Shown here: one piece after another, positions 35,946 to 52,242 of the stretch | Position numbering within the stretch: position 1 is the first letter of the stretch | How the letters are laid out: each line of letters begins with the position of its first letter | Assembly: GCA_017462485.1 (NCBI GenBank) | Contig: JAFTRA010000042.1 | Location: 119,214-183,213 of the forward strand | Reading direction: 5' to 3' | Length of the DNA: 64,000 bases | Origin: Clostridia bacterium | GTDB lineage: Bacteria; Bacillota; Clostridia; Oscillospirales; CAG-272 | Program-made: the position numbers and the translations under genes | Notes under the pieces: generated by a model | What the model was told of the DNA's origin: nothing | Database searches by the model: none | Seen by the model: the letters and a program-made list of their open reading frames with translations, nothing else

Positions 35946-36320
35946 TAGACTGGGTGGGGCAATCGCGCGATAACACGCCGAAAGGTTTTATCGTGAGGAA
36001 AGTCCGGGCATCAGAGAGCAGGATAACGGATAACGTCCGTCTGGGGCGACCCACGGGAAAGTGCAACAGAAATAAACCGCCGTACCTGTACGGTAAGGAT
36101 GGAAAGGCGAGGTAAGAGCTCACCCGTTTCTATGGCAACATAGATCCGCTGTAAACCCTATCCGATGCAACGCCTTGAGCTTCGGGGCAACCCGAGCCGC
36201 TGCTCGCGGCTTATCATGGCGGCAGAGCCTTACGGCTTGAACTTAACGGTGACGTTAAGTGAAGATAGATGATTGCTGCGCCAAAAGGCGTACAGAACCC
36301 GGCTTACAAGCCCAGTCCAA
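35946..36320 (+). ncRNA. rnpB: RNase P RNA, bacterial type A
   Basis: Universal P4 halves GAGGAAAGTCCGGGC and ACAGAACCCGGCTTA. AGTGCAACAGAAA, GGTAAGAGCTCACC and AGATAGATGATTGC are present. P1 pairs GACTGGG (35948) with CCCAGTC (36311). Confidence 0.92.
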
Positions 36321-36348
36321 AGAAAGCAATCTGACAAAAACATAAAAC

Positions 36349-39077: not shown

Positions 39078-39335
39078 TTGACTTTCGCCTTTATTTGTGA
39101 TAGAATAACTCTGCCAAACAAATTTAATAATAGAATTAGCGGTATCTTTTTCTCTATGGGAGTATTATACCCTTTTTTTGTCATAATCTTTTTTATAATT
39201 CGGTAAAACCGCAAATTCCGTTTAAAGAGATTATGGCACAGGTGCTCTAATTCTATTTAAATTTGTTTGGCGACAATTGGAGTTTGCGTTTTTCGGTGCG
39301 CTGACTTCGGTTGGCGCATCTTTTTATTTTTATCA
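39078..39335 (+). promoter_or_regulatory. promoter plus structured 5' leader with terminator-like hairpin upstream of the LRR lipoprotein gene
   Basis: TTGACT, 17 nt, TAGAAT (39078-39106). Arms of about 25 nt at 39113-39139 and 39247-39271 are complementary. A GGTGCGC...GCGCATC hairpin (39295-39320) is followed by TTTTTATTTTT just before the GGAGGA RBS. Confidence 0.5.
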
Positions 39336-39354
39336 AACTTTGGAGGAAAAGAAA

Positions 39355-42036
39355 ATGAAAAAATCAAGAAAAATCGCAATATTTTTACTGTGCCTATGTT
39401 TAATTTATGCGAGTATATTTACATTTGCAGCTTGCAAGAATAACGAAACCGGGAAAGATACTAGCGGAGAGCAAAATTCCGAAAACGCAACTGAGGAAGA
39501 TGCTAGCGTAGAGCAAGGAGGTAATGAGTCAGAAACCGGTTCTAGTGAGCCGAACGACAACAATCAAAATTCCGAGAATGGTGAACAAAACACTGAAAAT
39601 GAATACGCAAGCAATGATTTACAGTATGAACTTTCAAATGACAAGACTCACTATGTACTTTGCGGTATAGGAGATTGCACTGATACAGATATTGTAATTC
39701 CAAGTACGTATAACAATCTCCCTGTTTCTTCTATTCTTAATCAGGCATTTATGGGTTGCACAACTCTTACAAACATAACTATCCCAAATAGCGTTACCTC
39801 TATTGGTGACAGTGCGTTCTACAATTGCACAAGCCTTGCAAGCATAACCATTCCCGATAGCGTTACTTCTGTTGGCTATAGGGCGTTCCTAGGTTGCACC
39901 AATTTACAGTATAACGAATATGATAATGCATATTACCTTGGCAATGAAAAGAATCCTTACGTTGTATTAGTGGAACCTAAGAGTAGAGACATCACTTCTT
40001 GTATTATCCCTAACGGCACGAAGGTTATCTATGAACAAGCATTCCGTAGTTGCACAAGCCTTACAAGCATAACTATCCCCAAAATCGTTACTTCTATTGG
40101 TAGATATGCGTTCCAAGATTGCTCAAGCCTTACAAGCTTAACTATTCCTGATGGCATCACTTTTATTGGTGACGATGCATTCATAAATTGCGCGGATTTG
40201 CAATACAACAAATATGATAACGCATGTTATCTTGGAAATGAGAATAACCCTTACTTAGCATTAATTAAAGCTACGAGTGCCGATATTGCTTCTTGTGCTA
40301 TTCATAACGATACAAAAGTTATTTATTACTCTGCGTTCAAAGATTGCGCAAAACTTACAAACATAAATATTCCTGAAAAGGTTATTTCGATTGGTAGGTA
40401 TGCGTTTGAGAATTGCACAGCTATCGAAGAAATCTATTTTAATGCCAATGCTATGCGTGATTTTGAGTTTAGAAATGGAACTTTCGGTAATGCAGGCAAT
40501 GACGAAAATGGAATAAAAGTTGTTATTGGTAAAAACGTTACTAGAATTCCTGCGCATCTTTTCGAATCTGACACTGAAACAACCCCATATTCACCTAAAA
40601 TAACAAGTGTAGAATTCGAAAATAGCAGTATATGCGAAAATATAGGTTTTTCTGCGTTCTCTCGTTGCACAAGCCTTACAAGCATAACCATTCCGAATAG
40701 CGTTACTTCTATTGGTAGTTATGCGTTCCAAGATTGCTCAAGTCTCACAAGCGTAACTATTCCCGATAGCGTTACTTCTATTGGTAGTTATGCGTTCCAA
40801 GATTGCTCAAGCCTCACAAGCATAACCATTCCGAATGGCGTTACTTCTATTGGTAGGAGTGCGTTCCTTGGTTGCACAAGCCTTACAAGTATAAATATTC
40901 CCGATAGCGTTACTTCTATTGGTAGTTATGCGTTCCAAGATTGCTCAAGCCTCACAAGCGTAACTATTCCCGATAGTGTCACTTCCATTGGTGATTGTGC
41001 ATTTCGTGATTGCTCAAGTCTCACAAGCGTAACTATTCCCGATAGCGTTACTTCTATTGGTGACAGTGCGTTCCAAGATTGCTCAAGCCTCACAAGCATA
41101 ACCATTCCGAATGGCGTTACTTCTATTGGTAGGAGTGCGTTCCTTGGTTGCACAAGCCTTACAAGTATAACTATTCCAGATAGCGTTACTTCTATTGGTG
41201 CTAGAGCGTTCCGCGGTTGCACGAGTCTTACAAGCGTAACTATTCCCGATAGCGTTACTTCTATTGGTAGTTATGCGTTCCAAGATTGCTCAAGCCTTAC
41301 AACCGTAATCATTCCCGATAGCGTTACTTCTATTGGTATGCGTGCTTTCGAGGGTTGCATAAGCCTTACAAACATAACTATTCCAGATAGTGTCACTTCC
41401 ATTGGTGATCTTGCATTTCGTGATTGCTCAAGCCTTACAAGTGTAAATATTCCCAATAGCGTTACTTCTATTGGTAGGAATGCGTTCCAAGATTGCTCAA
41501 GTCTCACAAGCGTAACTATTCCCGATAGCGTTACCTCTATTGGTGATCTTGCATTTCGTGATTGCTCAAGTCTCACAAGCGTAACTATTCCCGATAGCGT
41601 TACCTCTATTGGTGATCTTGCATTTCGTGATTGCTCAAGTCTCACAAGCGTAACTATTCCCGATAGCGTTACTTCTATTGGTGACAGTGCGTTCCTTGGT
41701 TGCACCAATTTACAGTATAACGAATATGATAATGCATATTACCTTGGCAATGAAAAGAATCCTTACGTTGTATTAGTGAAACCTAAGAGTAGAGACATCA
41801 CTTCTTGTATTATCCCTAACGGCACGAAGGTTATCTATGAACAAGCATTCCGTAGTTGCACAAGCCTTACAAACATATTCTACAAAGGTACAAAAAAAGA
41901 CTGGAATAGCATCTCTTTCGGTTACTATAATAATCTTGAAGATGTCGCTCGTTACTACTACTCCGAAACCGCTCCCACAGAAGAAGGAAGTTTCTGGCAT
42001 TATGACGAAAATGAAGAGATTGCGATTTGGGAATAA
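39355..42036 (+). CDS. BspA-type leucine-rich-repeat surface lipoprotein
   Basis: GGAGGA RBS. MKKSRKIAIFLLCLCLIYASIFTFAAC lipobox, an acidic N/E/S linker, then more than 25 LRR units of about 23 aa (SLTSVTIPDSVTSIGDSAFQDCS). The ORF track start at 39277 lies in the leader. Confidence 0.85.
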   Translation: MKKSRKIAIFLLCLCLIYASIFTFAACKNNETGKDTSGEQNSENATEEDASVEQGGNESETGSSEPNDNNQNSENGEQNTENEYASNDLQYELSNDKTHYVLCGIGDCTDTDIVIPSTYNNLPVSSILNQAFMGCTTLTNITIPNSVTSIGDSAFYNCTSLASITIPDSVTSVGYRAFLGCTNLQYNEYDNAYYLGNEKNPYVVLVEPKSRDITSCIIPNGTKVIYEQAFRSCTSLTSITIPKIVTSIGRYAFQDCSSLTSLTIPDGITFIGDDAFINCADLQYNKYDNACYLGNENNPYLALIKATSADIASCAIHNDTKVIYYSAFKDCAKLTNINIPEKVISIGRYAFENCTAIEEIYFNANAMRDFEFRNGTFGNAGNDENGIKVVIGKNVTRIPAHLFESDTETTPYSPKITSVEFENSSICENIGFSAFSRCTSLTSITIPNSVTSIGSYAFQDCSSLTSVTIPDSVTSIGSYAFQDCSSLTSITIPNGVTSIGRSAFLGCTSLTSINIPDSVTSIGSYAFQDCSSLTSVTIPDSVTSIGDCAFRDCSSLTSVTIPDSVTSIGDSAFQDCSSLTSITIPNGVTSIGRSAFLGCTSLTSITIPDSVTSIGARAFRGCTSLTSVTIPDSVTSIGSYAFQDCSSLTTVIIPDSVTSIGMRAFEGCISLTNITIPDSVTSIGDLAFRDCSSLTSVNIPNSVTSIGRNAFQDCSSLTSVTIPDSVTSIGDLAFRDCSSLTSVTIPDSVTSIGDLAFRDCSSLTSVTIPDSVTSIGDSAFLGCTNLQYNEYDNAYYLGNEKNPYVVLVKPKSRDITSCIIPNGTKVIYEQAFRSCTSLTNIFYKGTKKDWNSISFGYYNNLEDVARYYYSETAPTEEGSFWHYDENEEIAIWE
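39892..40066 (+). repeat. 175-bp direct repeat, copy 1 (inside the LRR gene)
   Basis: Identical to 41698-41872 except for one base (GGAACC vs GAAACC). The offset is exactly 1806 bp. Confidence 0.9.
40666..41700 (+). repeat. 15 tandem 69-bp (23-codon) LRR units, highly similar at DNA level
   Basis: Period read directly: TGC.CAAG.CT.ACAAG.(A/G)TAAC.ATTCC.(G/A)ATAG.GTTACTTCTATTGGT... repeated 15 times in frame. Confidence 0.9.
41698..41872 (+). repeat. 175-bp direct repeat, copy 2 (inside the LRR gene)
   Basis: See 39892-40066. Confidence 0.9.
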
Positions 42037-47983: not shown

Positions 47984-48502
47984 TCAGTCACATTCAAGTC
48001 CTGCGAAGAAATCATCGTAGGTGCAATTATATATTTTCTTCAAATTTACAAGAACGCTGATTTTTATGTTAAGCTCACCGCACTCGTACTTTTCATAAGT
48101 GCTTAGGCAAGAGGGAATAATATGAACTCGTTTTAGAAAGGCAAATTTCCAGCAATACATCGGTAAAAATCCTTATAATATCCCTATATTATCTCAAATT
48201 TTAACCTCGTCTTACAGGAAATTTGCTCTTTCTAAAATTTCTCTAAACCCTCGAGCCTTAATTTTAAGATGATTTTGGTGCTTGGCACTCGCAGCCAAGT
48301 ACGACCTTGCAAGAGTGATAAGTGCCGAAAGCACTAAAAATTCAGGCTTGAGGGCGAGTTCGTATTATTCCCTCTTGCCTATATATCACTTCCGCGTCGC
48401 TGGAGCTCAGCACAAAGCTTTTCCTGCGGATAAACCCGCATCTAAACGAAGCTTTTTTAAATTTTGCCCCATATTCCTATCACGTCTTAATTTTTGTTCC
48501 AT
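47984..48502 (-). pseudogene. XRE-family HTH regulator gene, disrupted by a frameshift and a 278-bp insertion
   Basis: The minus strand reads MEQKLRRDRNMGQNLKKLRLDAGLS, then a 1-nt frame slip near 48427, then QEKLCAELQRRGSDI, then the insertion, then STYEKYECGELNIKISVLVNLKKIYNCTYDDFFAGLECD and a stop. Confidence 0.7.
48104..48381. mobile_element. MITE-like non-autonomous element with 27-bp terminal inverted repeats
   Basis: TAGGCAAGAGGGAATAATATGAACTCG (48104-48130) vs the reverse complement of 48355-48381 (TAGGCAAGAGGGAATAATACGAACTCG): 26/27 identical. No ORF. Removing 48104-48381 rejoins the XRE coding halves in frame. Confidence 0.7.
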
Positions 48503-48554
48503 AACTATTCTCCTTAATTTTTAATTGTTGTAACTTGAGGGCATTTTATTAAAG

Positions 48555-48788
48555 GATACCACGGTCAAAAAAGATATTTCGGGGAGTTTTCGTATGGACT
48601 CGAACCCACGCGTCTTAATCACGGCATAGCCGTGGATATCATCAAAACGGAGTTTTGTATATCACCAAGGCGTGAGCCTTGTATATCATCATTGCGAAAG
48701 AGGATACAGCCTACGGCAGATGATATACACCTTCGGTGATGAGATACACGCTAACGCGTGATGATATGCCATTGCTTTCGCAATGGAT
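48555..48788. other. ornate nested hairpin/9-mer element A, with the 19-nt inverted-repeat cap at its outer end
   Basis: GATACCACGGTC+A6+G at 48555-48573. Three (G/T)ATATCA(T/C)C motifs, then three GATGA(T/G)AT motifs, interleaved with six different short hairpins (details in findings). Confidence 0.6.
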
Positions 48789-48823
48789 AAAAAAATTCGA
48801 CAAGTCAAAACTTGTCGATTTTT
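48789..48823. terminator. bidirectional terminator (tRNA-Gln on the minus strand; element A on the plus strand)
   Basis: A7, TCGACAAGT / ACTTGTCGA, T6. Confidence 0.85.
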
Positions 48824-48897
48824 TGGCAGGGGTAGCAAGATTCGAACTTACGATGAGGGAGTCAAAGTCCCTTGCCTTGCCGCTTGGCGATACCCCT
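48824..48897 (-). tRNA. tRNA-Gln (anticodon UUG), CCA encoded
   Basis: The reverse complement AGGGGTATCGCCAAGCGGCAAGGCAAGGGACTTTGACTCCCTCATCGTAAGTTCGAATCTTGCTACCCCTGCCA folds as a cloverleaf with anticodon loop CTTTGAC. Closely resembles E. coli tRNA-Gln. Confidence 0.95.
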
Positions 48898-48918
48898 ATG
48901 TATTTAAGCAACGGGTAG

Positions 48919-48947
48919 ATTATATCATAAAAATTTACTTGTGTCAA
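48919..48947 (-). promoter_or_regulatory. perfect consensus sigma-A promoter of tRNA-Gln
   Basis: On the minus strand: TTGACA, 17 nt, TATAAT, ending about 20 nt upstream of the mature 5' end. Confidence 0.8.
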
Positions 48948-49023
48948 TAGGAGAAATTAAAAGTTTTGAAAGTTCAAATTTTGTTTTTTAGGTGTTGTAC
49001 TTATCTTGGAATTACGAAAGCAG

Positions 49024-49052
49024 TTGAAATATTCGTAGATTTGTGATATAGT
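49024..49052 (+). promoter_or_regulatory. sigma-A type promoter of the 49091-50459 two-gene operon
   Basis: TTGAAA, 17 nt, TATAGT. Confidence 0.6.
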
Positions 49053-49090
49053 GGAGTAAAGAATGTTTAACAGATAGAAGAGGTGAGCAA

Positions 49091-49633
49091 ATGAAATATT
49101 CGTCAACAAATCGGTTTGAAGATTTTGAGTTTCATGATTCTATGCTATCATTGGTGTCATGGGATAACTCGCGTTTGGTCATCGCAGCAAAGCACCTAAA
49201 CGTGCACAAAGACGCAGCGCCAAACAATGCCGGAGCAGATATGGAGATATCCGAAGCCCGCATTACATTCTACGAAGCTCTAGTAAAAGAATTCGAGCCG
49301 GGGCGTGCGTGGAAAAGAGACGAGAGCGGCAATTCATATACCGATGATCCTTTAATTATTCACAACGGAAAAGCTGCGCACGATATGTTTGAAAATGAAT
49401 TACGCAATTCCATTACAGTTATTGGATTTACATCTGACAACGGATTGTATGAGCTTGGTGCGGTTGGCATTGATCCTTATTTTTCTGTTCGTTTTACTTT
49501 TTCCAAATTTGAAGTAGAATGGGATGATTATCGTGAAAAAGCATGGTACGAATTGCATAGACAGTATAAAAAAACGATTACTCTCGCAACTGAAAACGAT
49601 AATATTGAGCTTGACGCTCACATATTGACTTAA
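49091..49633 (+). CDS. hypothetical cytoplasmic protein (180 aa)
   Basis: GAGGTGAG RBS. No signal peptide and no motif I recognise. Followed after a 16-nt gap by the next gene, so probably co-transcribed with it. Confidence 0.6.
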   Translation: MKYSSTNRFEDFEFHDSMLSLVSWDNSRLVIAAKHLNVHKDAAPNNAGADMEISEARITFYEALVKEFEPGRAWKRDESGNSYTDDPLIIHNGKAAHDMFENELRNSITVIGFTSDNGLYELGAVGIDPYFSVRFTFSKFEVEWDDYREKAWYELHRQYKKTITLATENDNIELDAHILT

Positions 49634-49649
49634 GAAAGGCGGTGAGGCA

Positions 49650-50459
49650 ATGTTTGGAGCAATATACGGAGACGTAATCGGCTCGTACTATGAAGTTCAT
49701 TGTACAAAGAATTACAATTTTGAATTCAACAAAGACAGTTATTTCACAGATGACAGTGTTTTAATTGCAGCAGTATGTAAATCAATACTTAATAATCCCA
49801 CTGAAATATCAAAATGGAATCTTCACGCCCGTTCCAAAGAATACGCCTCACACTATCGCCAATATTATTCGTACCATCCTCACGCCGGATTTGGGAATAT
49901 GTTTGCCGCTTGGGCAAAAGATCCGTATGCAAGTAATGGGCACAGTTATGCCAACGGCGCATCTATGCGAGTCATTCCAATCGGATATGCATACGACACA
50001 TTGGAGCAAACACTCCTGCAAGTAAAATCAAGTTGTATTCCTACTCATAATCATCGGGAAGCAATCAAAGGCGCGCAAGCGGTTGCTGCGGCAATTTTTT
50101 TAGCGCGAAACGGAGAGGATAAGGAGCAAATTAAAGCATATTTAGAAAAAACATTTAAATATAAGCTATCAACCCCTCTCACCACAATTAAAGAAAACCA
50201 CGTGTTCGATAGCCGTACATCCTATAGCGTTCCACCTGCGATTATTGCGTTCTTGGAATCGACAGATTATGAAAGTGCAATCAGAAATGCAATTTCCCTC
50301 GGTGGTGATGCAGATACACAAGCGTGCATAGCGGGGGGTATCGCAGAAGCTTATTACAAAGAAATCCCCGAACATATCAAGCGCTTTTGCGATAACAGAA
50401 TTGACAGTTCTATCAAATCCGTCGTGAAAGAATTTAAACAAAAGTATTTCATTAGATAG
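49650..50459 (+). CDS. ADP-ribosylglycohydrolase family protein (ARH/DraG/Tri1-like)
   Basis: IYGDVIGSYYE, FTDDSVL, ANGASMRVIPIG, PTHNHREA, LGGDADTQACIAGGIAEAYY. This is the full set of metal-site motifs of the family. Confidence 0.85.
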   Translation: MFGAIYGDVIGSYYEVHCTKNYNFEFNKDSYFTDDSVLIAAVCKSILNNPTEISKWNLHARSKEYASHYRQYYSYHPHAGFGNMFAAWAKDPYASNGHSYANGASMRVIPIGYAYDTLEQTLLQVKSSCIPTHNHREAIKGAQAVAAAIFLARNGEDKEQIKAYLEKTFKYKLSTPLTTIKENHVFDSRTSYSVPPAIIAFLESTDYESAIRNAISLGGDADTQACIAGGIAEAYYKEIPEHIKRFCDNRIDSSIKSVVKEFKQKYFIR

Positions 50460-50733
50460 ATTTTTGTTTACAAGCATGGCGTTAAAAGTTCTGTAGAACG
50501 CGGATACTTTTAACTCCCATCATCGCCAAGGGAAATGTGCATCATCACGAGAAAATCCGTGCATCTAACTCGGCCACACACTACTGTATCTAAATTTGGC
50601 ACACATCACAACAAAAGCACCCACTGAAAATGGGTGATGTTCTTAGCTGAGAATTTGTATTTTGACAAAAGTGCAAGCATCGCATTTGACTAGTCGAATG
50701 CATTATGGGCTAAGCCCCACCCCTTATAACAAC

Positions 50734-50783
50734 AGAAAGAGATAACAAATCGGTTTGTAGTCGAAATGTTATCTCTTTTTTCT
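50734..50783. terminator. terminator-like hairpin at the inner end of element B
   Basis: AAAGAGATAACA / TGTTATCTCTTT 12-bp stem with a 19-nt loop. TTTTTCT follows on the plus strand and an A-rich run precedes it. Confidence 0.6.
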
Positions 50784-50800
50784 GCTCGTTTTAGTTTAGA

Positions 50801-51036
50801 GTTATGAGGCTCGCAAAGCCCGCATTCGCGGGATTTTATGCTCGCCGTTATGAATTTGCTACACAAATGTTATGATATGATTGCCCATTGAACCTTAAAC
50901 TTGGCGAAGCCAATCATAACAATGCGAAGCATTTCATAACTCATAACTTGCCGGCAATGGCAATCATAACTTAGCGTGATTTGTCCGCTAAGGACAGCAC
51001 GCTAATGGTGGGTGCTCTTTTTTTGACCGTGGTATC
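50801..51036. other. ornate nested hairpin/heptamer element B, with the 19-nt inverted-repeat cap at its outer end
   Basis: Three GTTATGA then four TCATAAC motifs interleaved with seven short hairpins. Ends with T7+GACCGTGGTATC (51018-51036), the reverse complement of 48555-48573. Confidence 0.6.
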
Positions 51037-51090
51037 GGTGACTCGTTTATCGTTCGCAAAGCGAACATAACCGTAAGAGAACCTTTAATT

Positions 51091-52242
51091 TCACTTTATA
51101 AACGCAACCGCAAGAGCTATCCTCAATGCCTGAGGAGCGAGAGAGGATATTATACCGAACTCATTTATGGTATGCACGCTTCCGCCGAGTACTCCGAGCG
51201 CATCTACCGAGGGTATTCCGGCAGAAGATGCGAAAGCCGCATCGGTTCCGCCAAGGCTTTCGCACGGAGTCAACTCTCCGAGTCCCGCCTCGCGCCATAT
51301 ATCGTTCATTTTATTTGCAAGCGTTAGGTTTTTATCCGACCACTCCATAGCAGGTCTTACTCTCGGCAAAACAGCCGTGCAGGTGCAACCGGGCACCTTG
51401 ATATCGTTGCAAAGCTCTTCCACGTATTTTCTGAATTCGTCAAGCTCTGACATCTTTGCAAATCTGACGTTCGCCAGAAATTTGCACTCATCGGGAACGA
51501 TATTATGAACAGTTCCTCCGTTTATTACAGTGCAGGAAACGGTAAGTCCCTCGTTATTCTTGAATTTTTCAAGCTCAATTATTTTATAAGCCGCCTCGGC
51601 AATCGCATTTGAGCCCTGTACGGCGCAAGCAGCAGCGTGAGCCGTTACGCCCTTGAGGGTAAACTCAAAGGTAGCTATTCCTTTTCTTCCTATAACGATT
51701 TTATCCTTCTTGCCATCCTCTAAATTCAAAAATGCAATAGAGCCCTTGGCATCCTCGCAGATATAGTTTATCGTAGCGTCATTACTGTATTTTCCGCCGC
51801 CCTCTTCGTCACTTTGCAGATACATAATTACGGGTCGTGACGTGAAGCCGCATTCACGAAGAGCATCCATAGCCAAGAAGCCGGCAACTATACCGCCCTT
51901 GCAATCGGTAACACCGGGGCCGTATATTTTATCGCCCTCTATTTTTACAGCGGGATAACCGAAGGCTCCTATGCGATGCACCGTATCCATATGTCCCGAT
52001 AACGCAATAGGCTCTGCTGTGGAATCCTTATTCATAGTGATTTTAACAACGTCGCCCGCACGCTCTTGTGGGAATATCTCCACGTGCCAGCCGCGCTCTT
52101 CTGCCATTGATATGAAGTATTTTCCAACAGAGTCAACGCCCATTTTACTGCTCGTCGGACTCTCTATCTCGCAGACCTCTTTCCATATTTCAAGGTATTT
52201 ATCCTTAAGCTCTTCTATTTTTTTGATAAGCTTGTCTTTCAT
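51091..52242 (-). CDS. M20-family metallopeptidase (carboxypeptidase G2 / glutamate carboxypeptidase-like)
   Basis: LSGHMDTV, GPGVTDCKGG and YLQSDEEGGG metal-ligand motifs. Confidence 0.85.
   Translation of the reverse strand: MKDKLIKKIEELKDKYLEIWKEVCEIESPTSSKMGVDSVGKYFISMAEERGWHVEIFPQERAGDVVKITMNKDSTAEPIALSGHMDTVHRIGAFGYPAVKIEGDKIYGPGVTDCKGGIVAGFLAMDALRECGFTSRPVIMYLQSDEEGGGKYSNDATINYICEDAKGSIAFLNLEDGKKDKIVIGRKGIATFEFTLKGVTAHAAACAVQGSNAIAEAAYKIIELEKFKNNEGLTVSCTVINGGTVHNIVPDECKFLANVRFAKMSELDEFRKYVEELCNDIKVPGCTCTAVLPRVRPAMEWSDKNLTLANKMNDIWREAGLGELTPCESLGGTDAAFASSAGIPSVDALGVLGGSVHTINEFGIISSLAPQALRIALAVAFIK

What the first reader, a model, noticed from the sequence alone, without database searches (positions are those of the whole stretch)
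50734..51036. Element B: same nested architecture as element A built from a different, self-compensating heptamer (GTTATGA/TCATAAC)
The plus strand reads as follows.
- GTTATGA at 50801, 50847 and 50869.
- A centre.
- TCATAAC at 50914, 50934, 50941 and 50964.
- Interleaved hairpins: GGCT-CGCAA-AGCC, CCCGC-ATTC-GCGGG, ATTTG-CTACA-CAAAT, TTGGC-GAA-GCCAA, AATGC-GAA-GCATT, TTGCC-GGCAAT-GGCAA, and a two-level hairpin at 50971-51005 (TTAGCGTG..TGTCC-GCTAA-GGACA..CACGCTAA).
- A longer alternative helix, ATGATTGCCCATTG (50877-90) with CAATGGCAATCAT (50955-67).
- AGCACCCAC (50616-24) is complementary to GTGGGTGCT (51008-16).
Read on the minus strand, the order is: 19-nt cap, hairpin/motif array, mirror array, terminator-like hairpin (50734-83). 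This is the same layout as element A on the plus strand. The two copies keep the geometry, but the paired motif differs on both sides at once (GATATCATC/GATGATATC versus GTTATGA/TCATAAC). That is what base-pair covariation looks like. It is hard to explain as binding sites for a single protein.
Basis: partly seen in the sequence, partly recalled or inferred. Interest (0 to 1): 0.8.

Follow-up and report, generated by a model that had tools for sequence, protein, structure and literature searches.

The report
Strain-variable hairpin array inside a terminator
Element B is a real, about 235-bp block of small perfect hairpins separated by a repeated 7-base tag; it sits inside a transcription terminator, only some strains of one uncultured gut or rumen Clostridia species carry it, and it looks more like a new sort of extragenic palindromic repeat cluster than a conserved RNA gene.

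Summary
Elements A and B share the order H0-L1-H1-L2-H2-L3-centre-R1-H5-R2-H6-R3. Both fold into the same three-rung ladder with side hairpins.

The RNA-covariation reading is only partly supported.
- Both strands fold equally well.
- All hairpins are perfect Watson-Crick.
- The rungs within one element are identical to each other.
- In A the favourable loop strand flips at the centre.
- No promoter precedes either element.

Sister strains (M20 gene 99% identical) show that the shared "cap" is a 12-mer, GACCGTGGTATC, next to the T-tract of a bidirectional terminator. One strain has cap plus a plain terminator and no array. Others have A but lack B and the 2.1-kb orf180/ADP-ribosylglycohydrolase segment that carries it.

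No relatives turned up in Rfam, phages, plasmids, GTDB genomes, JGI metagenomes or IMG/VR.

The hairpins are enriched in the C-G-closed GNA/GNNA "mini-hairpin" class (GCGAAGC, GCGAAAGC, GCGTTAGC, CCGAAGG).

Best reading (about 0.4): an accessory, REP/BIME-like palindromic mosaic that extends a bidirectional terminator or 3'UTR. Rivals are a structured RNA, a single-stranded-DNA element, and a recombination by-product.

The parts
51025..51036 (.). Conserved 12-mer GACCGTGGTATC (+), equal to GATACCACGGTC (-). This is the 'cap' proper.
   Evidence: An identical copy lies at 48555-48566. The same 12-mer follows a plain terminator in strain L043. A diverged version, GCTATCCACATAAC, flanks the M20 terminator of L040 and L043.
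51018..51024 (.). T7 tract (A7 on the - strand) between array B and the 12-mer.
   Evidence: It matches the T-tract of the L043 terminator.
51008..51016 (.). GTGGGTGCT, the right arm of a split bidirectional terminator stem.
   Evidence: It is complementary to 50616-24. The run GGTGGGTGCTCTTTTTTTGACCGTGGTATCGGTGA is the same in L043, where the loop is only 6 nt.
50971..51005 (.). Two-level flank hairpin TTAGCGTG..GTCC-GCTAA-GGAC..CACGCTAA (H0 when read on the - strand).
50914..50970 (.). Right half-array: TCATAAC at 50914, 50934, 50941 and 50964, with hairpins AATGC-GAA-GCATT (50921-33) and TTGCC-GGCAAT-GGCAA (50948-63).
50876..50913 (.). Centre: TATGATTGCCCATTGAACCTTAAAC plus the mini-hairpin TTGGC-GAA-GCCAA (50901-13).
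50801..50875 (.). Left half-array: GTTATGA at 50801, 50847 and 50869, with the 39-nt hairpin 50808-46 and the hairpin ATTTG-CTACA-CAAAT (50854-68).
50736..50784 (.). Bidirectional terminator hairpin (arms 50736-52 and 50762-78) plus a T6 tract. It closes array B on the side away from the cap.
   Evidence: (I8).
50616..50636 (.). AGCACCCAC, the left arm of the split terminator, together with the local hairpin CACCCAC-TGAAAA-TGGGTG.
   Evidence: scores it as terminator-like on the - strand, followed by CTTTTGTTGT.
48973..51085 (.). 2,113-bp strain-variable segment: its own promoter, orf180, the ADP-ribosylglycohydrolase gene, element B and B's cap. Sister strains have 115 bp holding a plain terminator here.
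48555..48824 (.). Element A, the sister module. Cap 48555-72; 5' hairpin region 48573-617; hairpins H0-H2 with tags GATATCATC, TATATCACC and TATATCATC (48620-90); centre 48691-718; tags GATGATATA, GATGAGATA and GATGATATG with hairpins H5-H7 (48719-86); A7 tract 48789-95; bidirectional terminator 48797-818; T6 tract.
48824..48897 (-). tRNA-Gln(UUG). Its terminator and 3' flank hold element A. Its promoter (48947..48919) matches the consensus 12/12.

Best explanation
Element B, like A, is an accessory extragenic palindromic mosaic built into a bidirectional intrinsic terminator. It is not a free-standing RNA gene.

The common module is: 12-mer GATACCACGGTC, A-tract, [array], A-tract, bidirectional terminator hairpin, T-tract. 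The array can be absent, as in strain L043. When present it is two inverted half-arrays. Each half is three or four units of one short, perfect hairpin (every hairpin a different sequence) plus one 7-12-nt tag (the same tag throughout one element).

The two halves are complementary only through their tags. Any single strand therefore folds into a three-rung ladder with two four-way junctions and a hairpin on every side. That holds for RNA made from either direction and for unwound DNA.

Inferred mechanism:
- B is transcribed only as the 3' end of its neighbours: the M20 peptidase mRNA on the - strand and read-through of the orf180/ARH operon on the + strand.
- It then acts as E. coli REP/BIME clusters are reported to act. 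It is a very stable, nuclease-resistant, strand-symmetric structure that backs up termination, insulates convergent or tandem transcription units, and protects the upstream mRNA.
- Strain-to-strain gain and loss tunes this without touching coding sequence.

Shown: the anatomy, the fold, the symmetry, the position in the terminator, and the presence/absence polymorphism. Inferred: transcription, and the terminator/stabiliser effect.
For: Position:
- B lies in the loop of the terminator stem AGCACCCAC/GTGGGTGCT. It also lies between two T-tracts, next to a second terminator hairpin.
- A lies between the tRNA-Gln terminator and T6 plus the 12-mer.

Allelic series within one species (M20 gene DNA 99.06% identical):
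- L043 has tRNA-Gln, a plain terminator, T7 and the 12-mer, with no array.
- L040, L042 and L086-L090 have A but no B.
- The window has both A and B.

Other points:
- No promoter-like site precedes either element, and no terminator lies between the M20 stop and B.
- Energies and z-scores are equal on both strands.
- With DNA parameters the ladder is the minimum-energy fold on all four strands. With RNA parameters, folds that use the L-R rungs beat local-only folds by 7 kcal/mol (A) and 17-20 kcal/mol (B).
- Hairpins are perfect and flush with their spacers. The left and right arms are homologous beyond the tags, and stem changes are compensated.
- The surroundings are ordinary chromosome, with no recombinase or transposase from 25 to 64 kb of the window or in 10 kb beyond its left edge.
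- REP clusters are reported to act as combined 3'UTR terminators and stabilisers whose locations vary between strains (bioRxiv 10.64898/2026.03.23.713779).
Against: - Hairpins alone would serve a terminator or stabiliser role. The identical tags within one element, and the conserved 12-mer, are left unexplained.
- REPs are high-copy and alike in sequence. Here every hairpin is unique, and only two arrays occur in 74 kb.
- The internal hairpins are not followed by U-tracts.
- There are no expression data.
- Enrichment in the GNA/GNNA mini-hairpin class points as much to single-stranded DNA as to RNA.
Confidence: 0.4

Rival explanations
1. One reading: A and B are two members of a structured non-coding RNA family. 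A would be read on +, B on -, with the cap at the 5' end. The L and R motifs would pair in the RNA, and the change of motif between copies would be covariation.
For: - Both elements share one topology and have strong fold z-scores.
- Hairpin sequences differ while the hairpins themselves are kept, with compensated stem changes.
- Two GNRA-type loops are present: GUGA on A(+) and GAAA on A(-).
- B would be part of the M20 3'UTR.
Against: - There is no Rfam match, even at E <= 10.
- No promoter lies at the cap, and the cap also occurs without an array.
- The fold is equally good on the opposite strand.
- The curated helices hold about one G-U pair. MFE G-U counts do not favour the proposed strand: B(+) has 9-12 against 3 for B(-).
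- Identical rungs invite misfolding, which is unusual for a specific RNA fold.
- Seven of 13 loops are triloops.
- The G..A loops lie mostly on the strand opposite to the one proposed (7 against 2), and in A they switch strand at the centre.
- The elements are present or absent among near-identical strains, and no homologue exists elsewhere.
Confidence: 0.2
2. An element that acts as single-stranded DNA. It would be an array of tag-plus-hairpin sites for a structure-specific enzyme, such as an HUH/Y1 nuclease as with REP/RAYT or IS200/IS605 ends, or a primase or polymerase as with ssi signals and hairpin promoters. The array could be non-autonomously mobile and inserted in terminator A/T-tracts.
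For: - Seven of the 29 C-G-closed GNA/GNNA hairpins in the whole 64 kb lie in A (5) and B (2).
- Their cores, GCGAAAGC, GCGTTAGC, CCGAAGG and GCGAAGC, are the 'mini-hairpin DNA' sequences described at the phage G4 and St-1/alpha3 priming sites and in RSF1010 ssiA. N4 hairpin promoters use 5-bp stems with GAA or GGA loops (PMC13037366).
- With DNA parameters the ladder is the minimum-energy fold.
- Each half-array is favourable on the opposite strand, as with ssiA/ssiB or paired REPs.
- The arrays are flanked by duplicated A/T-tracts, and the 372-bp block 50637-51008 is flanked by direct TGGGTG repeats.
- The elements are present or absent between strains.
- Independent assemblies break inside A and B.
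Against: - No HUH, Rep, primase or transposase gene lies from 25 to 64 kb of the window or in the 10 kb beyond its left edge.
- A and B share no terminal sequence other than the cap, and the cap stays behind in the 'empty' allele.
- The terminator hairpins next to the three alleles all differ, so these are not simple filled and empty versions of one site.
- Only two copies were seen.
- There is no GTAG or CGTC head.
Confidence: 0.2
3. A by-product with no function. A recombination-prone terminator palindrome would have grown by inverted and tandem duplication, and template-switch correction would have kept the hairpins perfect.
For: - The arms align beyond the tags. Scores are 40 and 41, against 10-13 +/- 4.5 for shuffles.
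- Units U3 and U4 of B (AATGC-TTC-GCATT and TTGGC-TTC-GCCAA) look like tandem duplicates.
- The locus is a mosaic of related terminator and cap modules that are shuffled between strains.
Against: - Two unrelated sequences arrived at the same unit order and the same number of rungs.
- The enrichment in G..A loops is strong.
- A is 100% identical in the eight assemblies that cover it.
Confidence: 0.1
4. Arrays of binding sites on duplex DNA, such as iterons, a partition site, recombinase arm-type sites or operators for the neighbouring XRE regulator.
For: - One short motif appears in both orientations at a spacing of about 20-24 bp.
- A lies directly upstream of an XRE-family gene.
Against: - This does not explain why every spacer is a perfect hairpin.
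- B has no adjacent DNA-binding gene and no gene to regulate.
- There is no rep, par or int gene.
- XRE homologues in other genomes have no such arrays upstream.
Confidence: 0.08

Closest known systems
REP/BIME clusters of Enterobacteria and Pseudomonas (e.g. E. coli REP325)
   Same: - Both are extragenic and sit at gene 3' ends or between convergent genes.
- Both are clusters of small palindromes in opposite orientations joined by short linkers.
- Both form hairpins on either strand.
- Their locations differ between strains.
- REP clusters are reported to act as terminator plus mRNA stabiliser (PMC3333891 and PMC4550694 as listed).
   Different: - In BIMEs the palindromes are the conserved, high-copy part and carry a GTAG or CGTC head. 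Here every palindrome is unique and the linker (tag) is the conserved part.
- The tag differs between the two arrays.
- Only two arrays occur in 74 kb.
- No RAYT gene was seen.
Mini-hairpin DNA at single-strand initiation sites (phage G4 and St-1/alpha3 origins, RSF1010 ssiA/ssiB) and N4 virion-RNAP hairpin promoters
   Same: - The core sequences are identical: GCGAAAGC, GCGTTAGC, CCGAAGG and GCG(A/G)AGC.
- Stems are short, with GNA or GNNA loops.
- The signals sit on opposite strands of an inverted repeat (PMC13037366).
   Different: - Those sites belong to replicons or phage genomes with a cognate primase or polymerase.
- They are single sites, not arrays with a repeated tag.
- Here the context is a housekeeping chromosomal terminator.
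Bidirectional intrinsic terminators
   Same: Both have an A-tract, a perfect palindrome and a T-tract, and both work on either strand. The array-less allele in L043 is exactly such a terminator.
   Different: - Here the loop or T-tract carries 215-385 nt of extra nested hairpins.
- The internal hairpins lack U-tracts.
Pneumococcal BOX elements (boxA-boxB(n)-boxC). This comparison rests on my own knowledge and was not tested here.
   Same: Both are modular and intergenic, have a variable number of internal units, have ends that pair, and are predicted to form a stable structure.
   Different: BOX modules are conserved in sequence and present in about 100 copies per genome. A and B share only the 18-nt cap.
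Integron attC sites
   Same: Both are imperfect palindromes at the 3' end of a gene cassette, and both are active as a folded single strand.
   Different: - The tag order is GTTATGA...TCATAAC, whereas attC runs RYYYAAC...GTTRRRY.
- The tags do not fit the core consensus.
- There are multiple tags.
- No integrase and no attI were found.

Membership tests
Any Rfam 15 RNA family | Covariance-model score at or above the gathering threshold. | tested here: not met
   Only RNase P RNA and tRNA-Gln are found in the window. At E <= 10 nothing credible falls on A or B.
REP/BIME | Extragenic, at the 3' ends of genes or between convergent genes. | tested here: met
   B lies between the convergent M20 and ARH genes. 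A lies 3' of tRNA-Gln.
REP/BIME | Many copies per genome of a 20-40-nt palindrome with conserved sequence. | tested here: not met
   None of the 14 hairpins tested recurs elsewhere in the window. There are only two arrays in 64 kb plus 10 kb. The whole genome was not available.
REP/BIME | A GTAG or CGTC tetranucleotide head at the foot of the hairpin. | tested here: not met
   The tags are GTTATGA and (G/T)ATATCA(T/C)C.
REP/BIME | An associated RAYT (Y1 HUH) gene in the genome. | not testable with these tools
   None lies from 25 to 64 kb of the window or in the 10 kb beyond its left edge. The rest of the genome could not be reached.
MITE | Terminal inverted repeats, a target-site duplication, and multiple dispersed copies. 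| tested here: not met
   - The ends of A and of B are not inverted repeats.
- Only the A/T-tracts are duplicated, which is ambiguous.
- There are two copies with unrelated sequence.
Integron attC | R''(RYYYAAC)...R'(GTTRRRY) in that order, with an integron integrase or attI nearby. | tested here: not met
   The order is reversed and the consensus is not matched. No integrase was found.
Type III toxin-antitoxin RNA (ToxI-like) | Direct tandem repeats of one 34-45-nt unit, a terminator, and then a toxin gene downstream. | tested here: not met
   The units differ and are mirrored. No downstream toxin gene is present, and PADLOC gives no hit.
Plasmid iterons / partition sites | Repeats next to a rep or par gene, with an AT-rich region and DnaA boxes. 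| tested here: not met
   No rep or par gene is present. There is no plasmid or phage match apart from the tRNA.
Single-strand initiation signal / mini-hairpin DNA | A hairpin with a GCGNNAGC, GCGNAGC or C-GNA-G core. | tested here: met
   Seven such hairpins lie in A and B, out of 29 in the 64 kb. The class is defined in PMC13037366.
Single-strand initiation signal / mini-hairpin DNA | Belongs to a replicon that has a cognate primase or Rep and a single-stranded DNA stage. | tested here: not met
   The locus is chromosomal and housekeeping, with no such gene from 25 to 64 kb of the window or in the 10 kb beyond its left edge.
Bidirectional intrinsic terminator | A G+C-containing perfect hairpin flanked by an A-tract and a T-tract. 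| tested here: met
   This holds for the flanking hairpins 48797-818 and 50736-78, for the split stem 50616-24 / 51008-16, and for the L043 allele. The internal array hairpins have no U-tract.

The most novel reading that the evidence does not exclude
A and B would be the first examples of a new class of single-strand-active element. Such an element is a ladder of perfect four-way junctions, built from identical tag rungs and unique GNA/GNNA mini-hairpins, that is placed at the A/T-tract of intrinsic terminators next to a conserved 12-mer. It would be read by an as yet unknown structure-specific enzyme (an HUH nuclease, primase or polymerase) or would act as a self-assembling RNA. Each element would carry its own tag 'address'.
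Probability: 0.22. Interest if true: 0.8.

Novelty: new variant of a known kind. Interest (0 to 1): 0.45.

Why it matters
If the best reading holds, Gram-positive gut anaerobes have their own REP/BIME-like way of tuning 3' ends. It would be built on a different principle: unique hairpins joined by a shared tag, rather than shared hairpins. Such blocks would be swapped between strains without touching genes.

If the tags and the 12-mer turn out to be read by an enzyme, or the ladder is a functional RNA or single-stranded DNA, this would be a new kind of element with a programmable short address.

In either case the locus is a compact natural example of stacked four-way junctions made of extraordinarily stable mini-hairpins.

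Tried and rejected
Searches that found no relative:
- Rfam at gathering and at E-value thresholds: nothing.
- blastn of 48540-51060 against phages and plasmids: only the tRNA-Gln matches.
- Exact cap scans of IMG/VR (0 hits), GTDB genomes (36 hits) and JGI metagenomes (26 hits). All hits are chance matches in coding DNA, with no arrays.
- Array-pattern scans of IMG/VR for both tags: 150 loci, none mirrored.
- Neighbour-anchored searches. The closest M20 homologue after the 99% one is 67% identical and not syntenic. orf180 homologues sit in other contexts, without ARH or arrays. XRE homologues have no arrays upstream. An extra 10 kb of the same contig has none.

Ideas considered and rejected:
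- The two caps as terminal inverted repeats of a 2.5-kb transposon or as an invertible segment. A persists without B, and the cap persists without either array.
- The cap as a tRNA 3'-end att remnant. It matches the tRNA-Gln 3' end at only 9 of 13 positions and in the inverted orientation. The T-loop-like GGGTTCGAGTCC at 48598-612 is not recognised as tRNA.
- Hairpins copied from other terminators in the window: no copies.
- A third array at 40.6-41.0 kb: it is LRR coding repeats.
- The tags as extended -10 promoters, or as HUH nick sites of the phiX174/pC194 type. These are resemblances only, and the polarity is inconsistent between A and B.
- Decayed coding sequence: the only ORF (50690-50866) has no family hit.

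Not done:
- A covariance model built from A and B. The two cannot be aligned by sequence, and no public collection can be searched with such a model.

Full report
**Observation.** That covers three GTTATGA on the left, four TCATAAC on the right, the interleaved hairpins, the alternative helix 50877-90 / 50955-67, the distant pair AGCACCCAC / GTGGGTGCT, and the M20 stop at 51091. There are two small corrections. The first two hairpins overlap by 2 nt and fold as one 39-nt hairpin (50808-46). The shared cap is 18 exact bases, not 19.

The features are far from chance:
- The heptamer occurs 21 times against 8.3 expected, with 7 copies in 170 nt.
- The cap occurs twice against 0.05 expected.
- Fold z-scores are -5.4 to -6.4.
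- Each of five clean spacers is a flush, perfect 5-bp hairpin, matched by 0.1-1.3% of shuffles.
- A sequence-free scan for mirrored k-mer arrays finds only A and B in the window and nothing comparable in about 560 kb of other DNA.

**Anatomy.** Read from the cap, A (+) and B (-) have the same order: cap, A-tract, flank hairpin H0, L1, H1, L2, H2, L3, a centre containing a hairpin, R1, H5, R2, H6, R3, A-tract, bidirectional terminator hairpin, T-tract. With DNA parameters the minimum-energy fold of all four strands is a ladder: rungs L1-R3, L2-R2 and L3-R1, with a hairpin on each side of each junction. With RNA parameters the folds use the same rungs. They are 7 kcal/mol (A) and 17-20 kcal/mol (B) better than folds restricted to local hairpins. 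So the claim of a shared nested architecture holds.

**What the cap is.** Contigs from other samples carry the same M20 gene at 99.06% DNA identity. They give an allelic series.
- In L043 the tRNA-Gln gene is followed by AAAAGAGCACCCACC-GTTTTT-GGTGGGTGCTC-TTTTTTT-GACCGTGGTATC-GGTGATTCG. This is a plain bidirectional terminator followed by the reverse complement of the cap, with no array.
- The run GGTGGGTGCTCTTTTTTTGACCGTGGTATCGGTGA is the same sequence that borders element B in the window. Its other stem arm is at 50616-24. B, with about 385 nt in all, therefore sits inside the loop of that terminator.
- L040, L042 and L086-L090 have element A, 100% identical, between the tRNA-Gln terminator and T6 plus the 12-mer. 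They lack window 48973-51085, a 2,113-bp segment with its own promoter, orf180, an ADP-ribosylglycohydrolase gene, B and B's cap. In its place they have 115 bp holding a simple terminator whose flank is a diverged cap-like GCTATCCACATAAC.

The cap is therefore a 12-mer that accompanies terminator T-tracts, not the 5' end of an RNA. Both arrays are optional inserts between that 12-mer/A-tract and a terminator hairpin. Several independent assemblies break inside A or B.

**Relatives.** None were found. Rfam gives nothing. Phage and plasmid collections match only the tRNA. The cap has no hit in IMG/VR, and its hits in GTDB genomes and JGI metagenomes are chance matches in coding DNA. Tag-array patterns in IMG/VR are never mirrored. 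Loci around homologues of M20, orf180 and the XRE regulator, and 10 kb more of the same contig, have no arrays. The organism is an uncultured member of the Ruminococcaceae/Oscillospiraceae-like Clostridia; the next M20 relative is only 67% identical. The neighbourhood is ordinary chromosome: GAPDH, RNase P RNA, proline biosynthesis genes and glycoside hydrolases. No recombinase, transposase, reverse transcriptase or Rep gene lies from 25 to 64 kb of the window or in the added 10 kb.

**RNA or DNA, and which strand.** Several observations weigh against a one-strand RNA design.
- Both strands fold equally well: -91 against -88 kcal/mol for A, and -97.7 against -97.9 for B, with equal z-scores.
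- The curated stems are all Watson-Crick. The only G-U pair is in the outer part of hairpin 50808-46, on the + strand.
- The rungs inside one element are identical to each other. Pairing selection does not require that, and it would favour misfolding.
- Seven of 13 loops are triloops.
- Loops are strongly of the G..A type closed by C-G. Seven of the 29 such hairpins in the whole 64 kb lie in A (5) and B (2). Their cores, GCGAAAGC, GCGTTAGC, CCGAAGG, GCGAAGC (twice), CGGAG and GCGTGAGC, are the 'mini-hairpin DNA' class. The same sequences are described at the phage G4 and St-1/alpha3 priming sites and in RSF1010 ssiA (PMC13037366).
- In A these loops are on the + strand in the left half and on the - strand in the right half. 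A is therefore two inverted half-arrays of the same kind of unit. The arms also align beyond the tags, with compensated stem changes.
- No promoter-like site precedes either cap. The only route to transcription is as the 3' end of M20 (- strand), since no terminator lies between its stop and B, or as read-through of tRNA-Gln or the ARH operon.

**Explanation.**
- I commit, at about 0.4, to an accessory palindromic mosaic that extends a bidirectional terminator or 3'UTR. It is strand-symmetric because it faces transcription from both sides. It would work as REP/BIME clusters are reported to work, as terminator plus mRNA stabiliser with strain-variable locations. The anatomy, symmetry, position and polymorphism are shown. 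The transcription and the effect are inferred. This reading leaves the identical tags and the 12-mer unexplained.
- About 0.2 goes to a single-stranded-DNA element: tag-plus-hairpin sites for an HUH-type or priming enzyme, possibly mobile into terminator A/T-tracts.
- About 0.1 goes to a functionless product of palindrome growth.
- About 0.08 goes to duplex-DNA binding arrays.
- Decayed coding sequence is excluded for practical purposes.

**Comparison and novelty.** The closest known kind is the REP/BIME cluster. It shares the position, the opposed palindromes with linkers, the strain variability and the proposed role. The logic is inverted, though: here the hairpins are unique and the linker is conserved. 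There is also no GTAG head, no high copy number and no RAYT gene in reach, so membership is not met. The hairpin cores match mini-hairpin single-strand initiation signals, but the replicon context is missing. Integron attC, MITE, ToxI-type repeats and iterons all fail defining features. I rate it a new variant of a known kind, with moderate interest. About one chance in five remains that it is a truly new single-strand-active element.

Noticed in passing
window 48973-51085, compared with L040 9160-9275 and L043 3797-3911: A 2,113-bp segment is present in the window strain and replaced by 115 bp in sister strains whose M20 gene is 99% identical. It carries its own promoter (49024-49052), orf180, an ADP-ribosylglycohydrolase gene and element B. 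orf180 corresponds to the N-terminal 180 aa of a 312-aa Clostridia family whose C-terminus weakly matches DUF6304. Neither gene hits PADLOC, and orf180 has no NCBIfam hit.
   Followed up: partly
L043 4047-4190: In this strain tRNA-Gln is followed by a plain terminator plus the 12-mer. After that come GCGCTC-GTTTAT-GAGCGC, GTAAG.., CGAGC-TTG-CTCG and TAAGCG, where the contig ends. This may be the start of a third hairpin series with a different tag.
   Followed up: no
window ~48282-48502 (- strand): The XRE-family HTH gene next to element A is frameshifted in the window but intact (81 aa) in L042 and L086-L090. This small regulator is about 80% identical across thousands of Clostridia proteins. 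In L096-L102 it again lies beside tRNA genes.
   Followed up: partly
L097 2540-2860 (also L099-L102) compared with L096 3265-3425: A 161-bp tandem duplication of a tRNA-like segment plus terminator, downstream of the XRE homologue, is polymorphic between samples.
   Followed up: no
window 48598-48612 (- strand): A T-loop-like GGGTTCGAGTCC lies in the cap-proximal hairpin region of element A. Neither ARAGORN nor the Rfam tRNA model calls it.
   Followed up: yes
window 48919-48947 (- strand): The tRNA-Gln promoter matches the consensus 12/12 (TTGACA, 17 nt, TATAAT) and has an upstream TG. Its extended -10 (ATGATATA) happens to equal the core of element A's tag.
   Followed up: no
L038, L039, L087, L089, L090 (contig ends at window 50898, 50923 and inside 48573-48790): Independent assemblies end inside A or B. 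Either the palindromes break the assembly graph, or several alleles coexist in those samples.
   Followed up: partly
L028 2405-2480 and 5711-5800 (same contig as L059): A Bacteroidales MAG fetched by a chance cap match carries contiguous AATTATG heptads in both orientations. They are unrelated to A and B, and they resemble heptad operator or centromere arrays.
   Followed up: no
window 35947-36322 and 39277-42036: A class A RNase P RNA, and a 919-aa BspA-type LRR protein. The LRR protein's coding repeats produced a false mirror-k-mer signal at 40.6-41.0 kb.
   Followed up: yes
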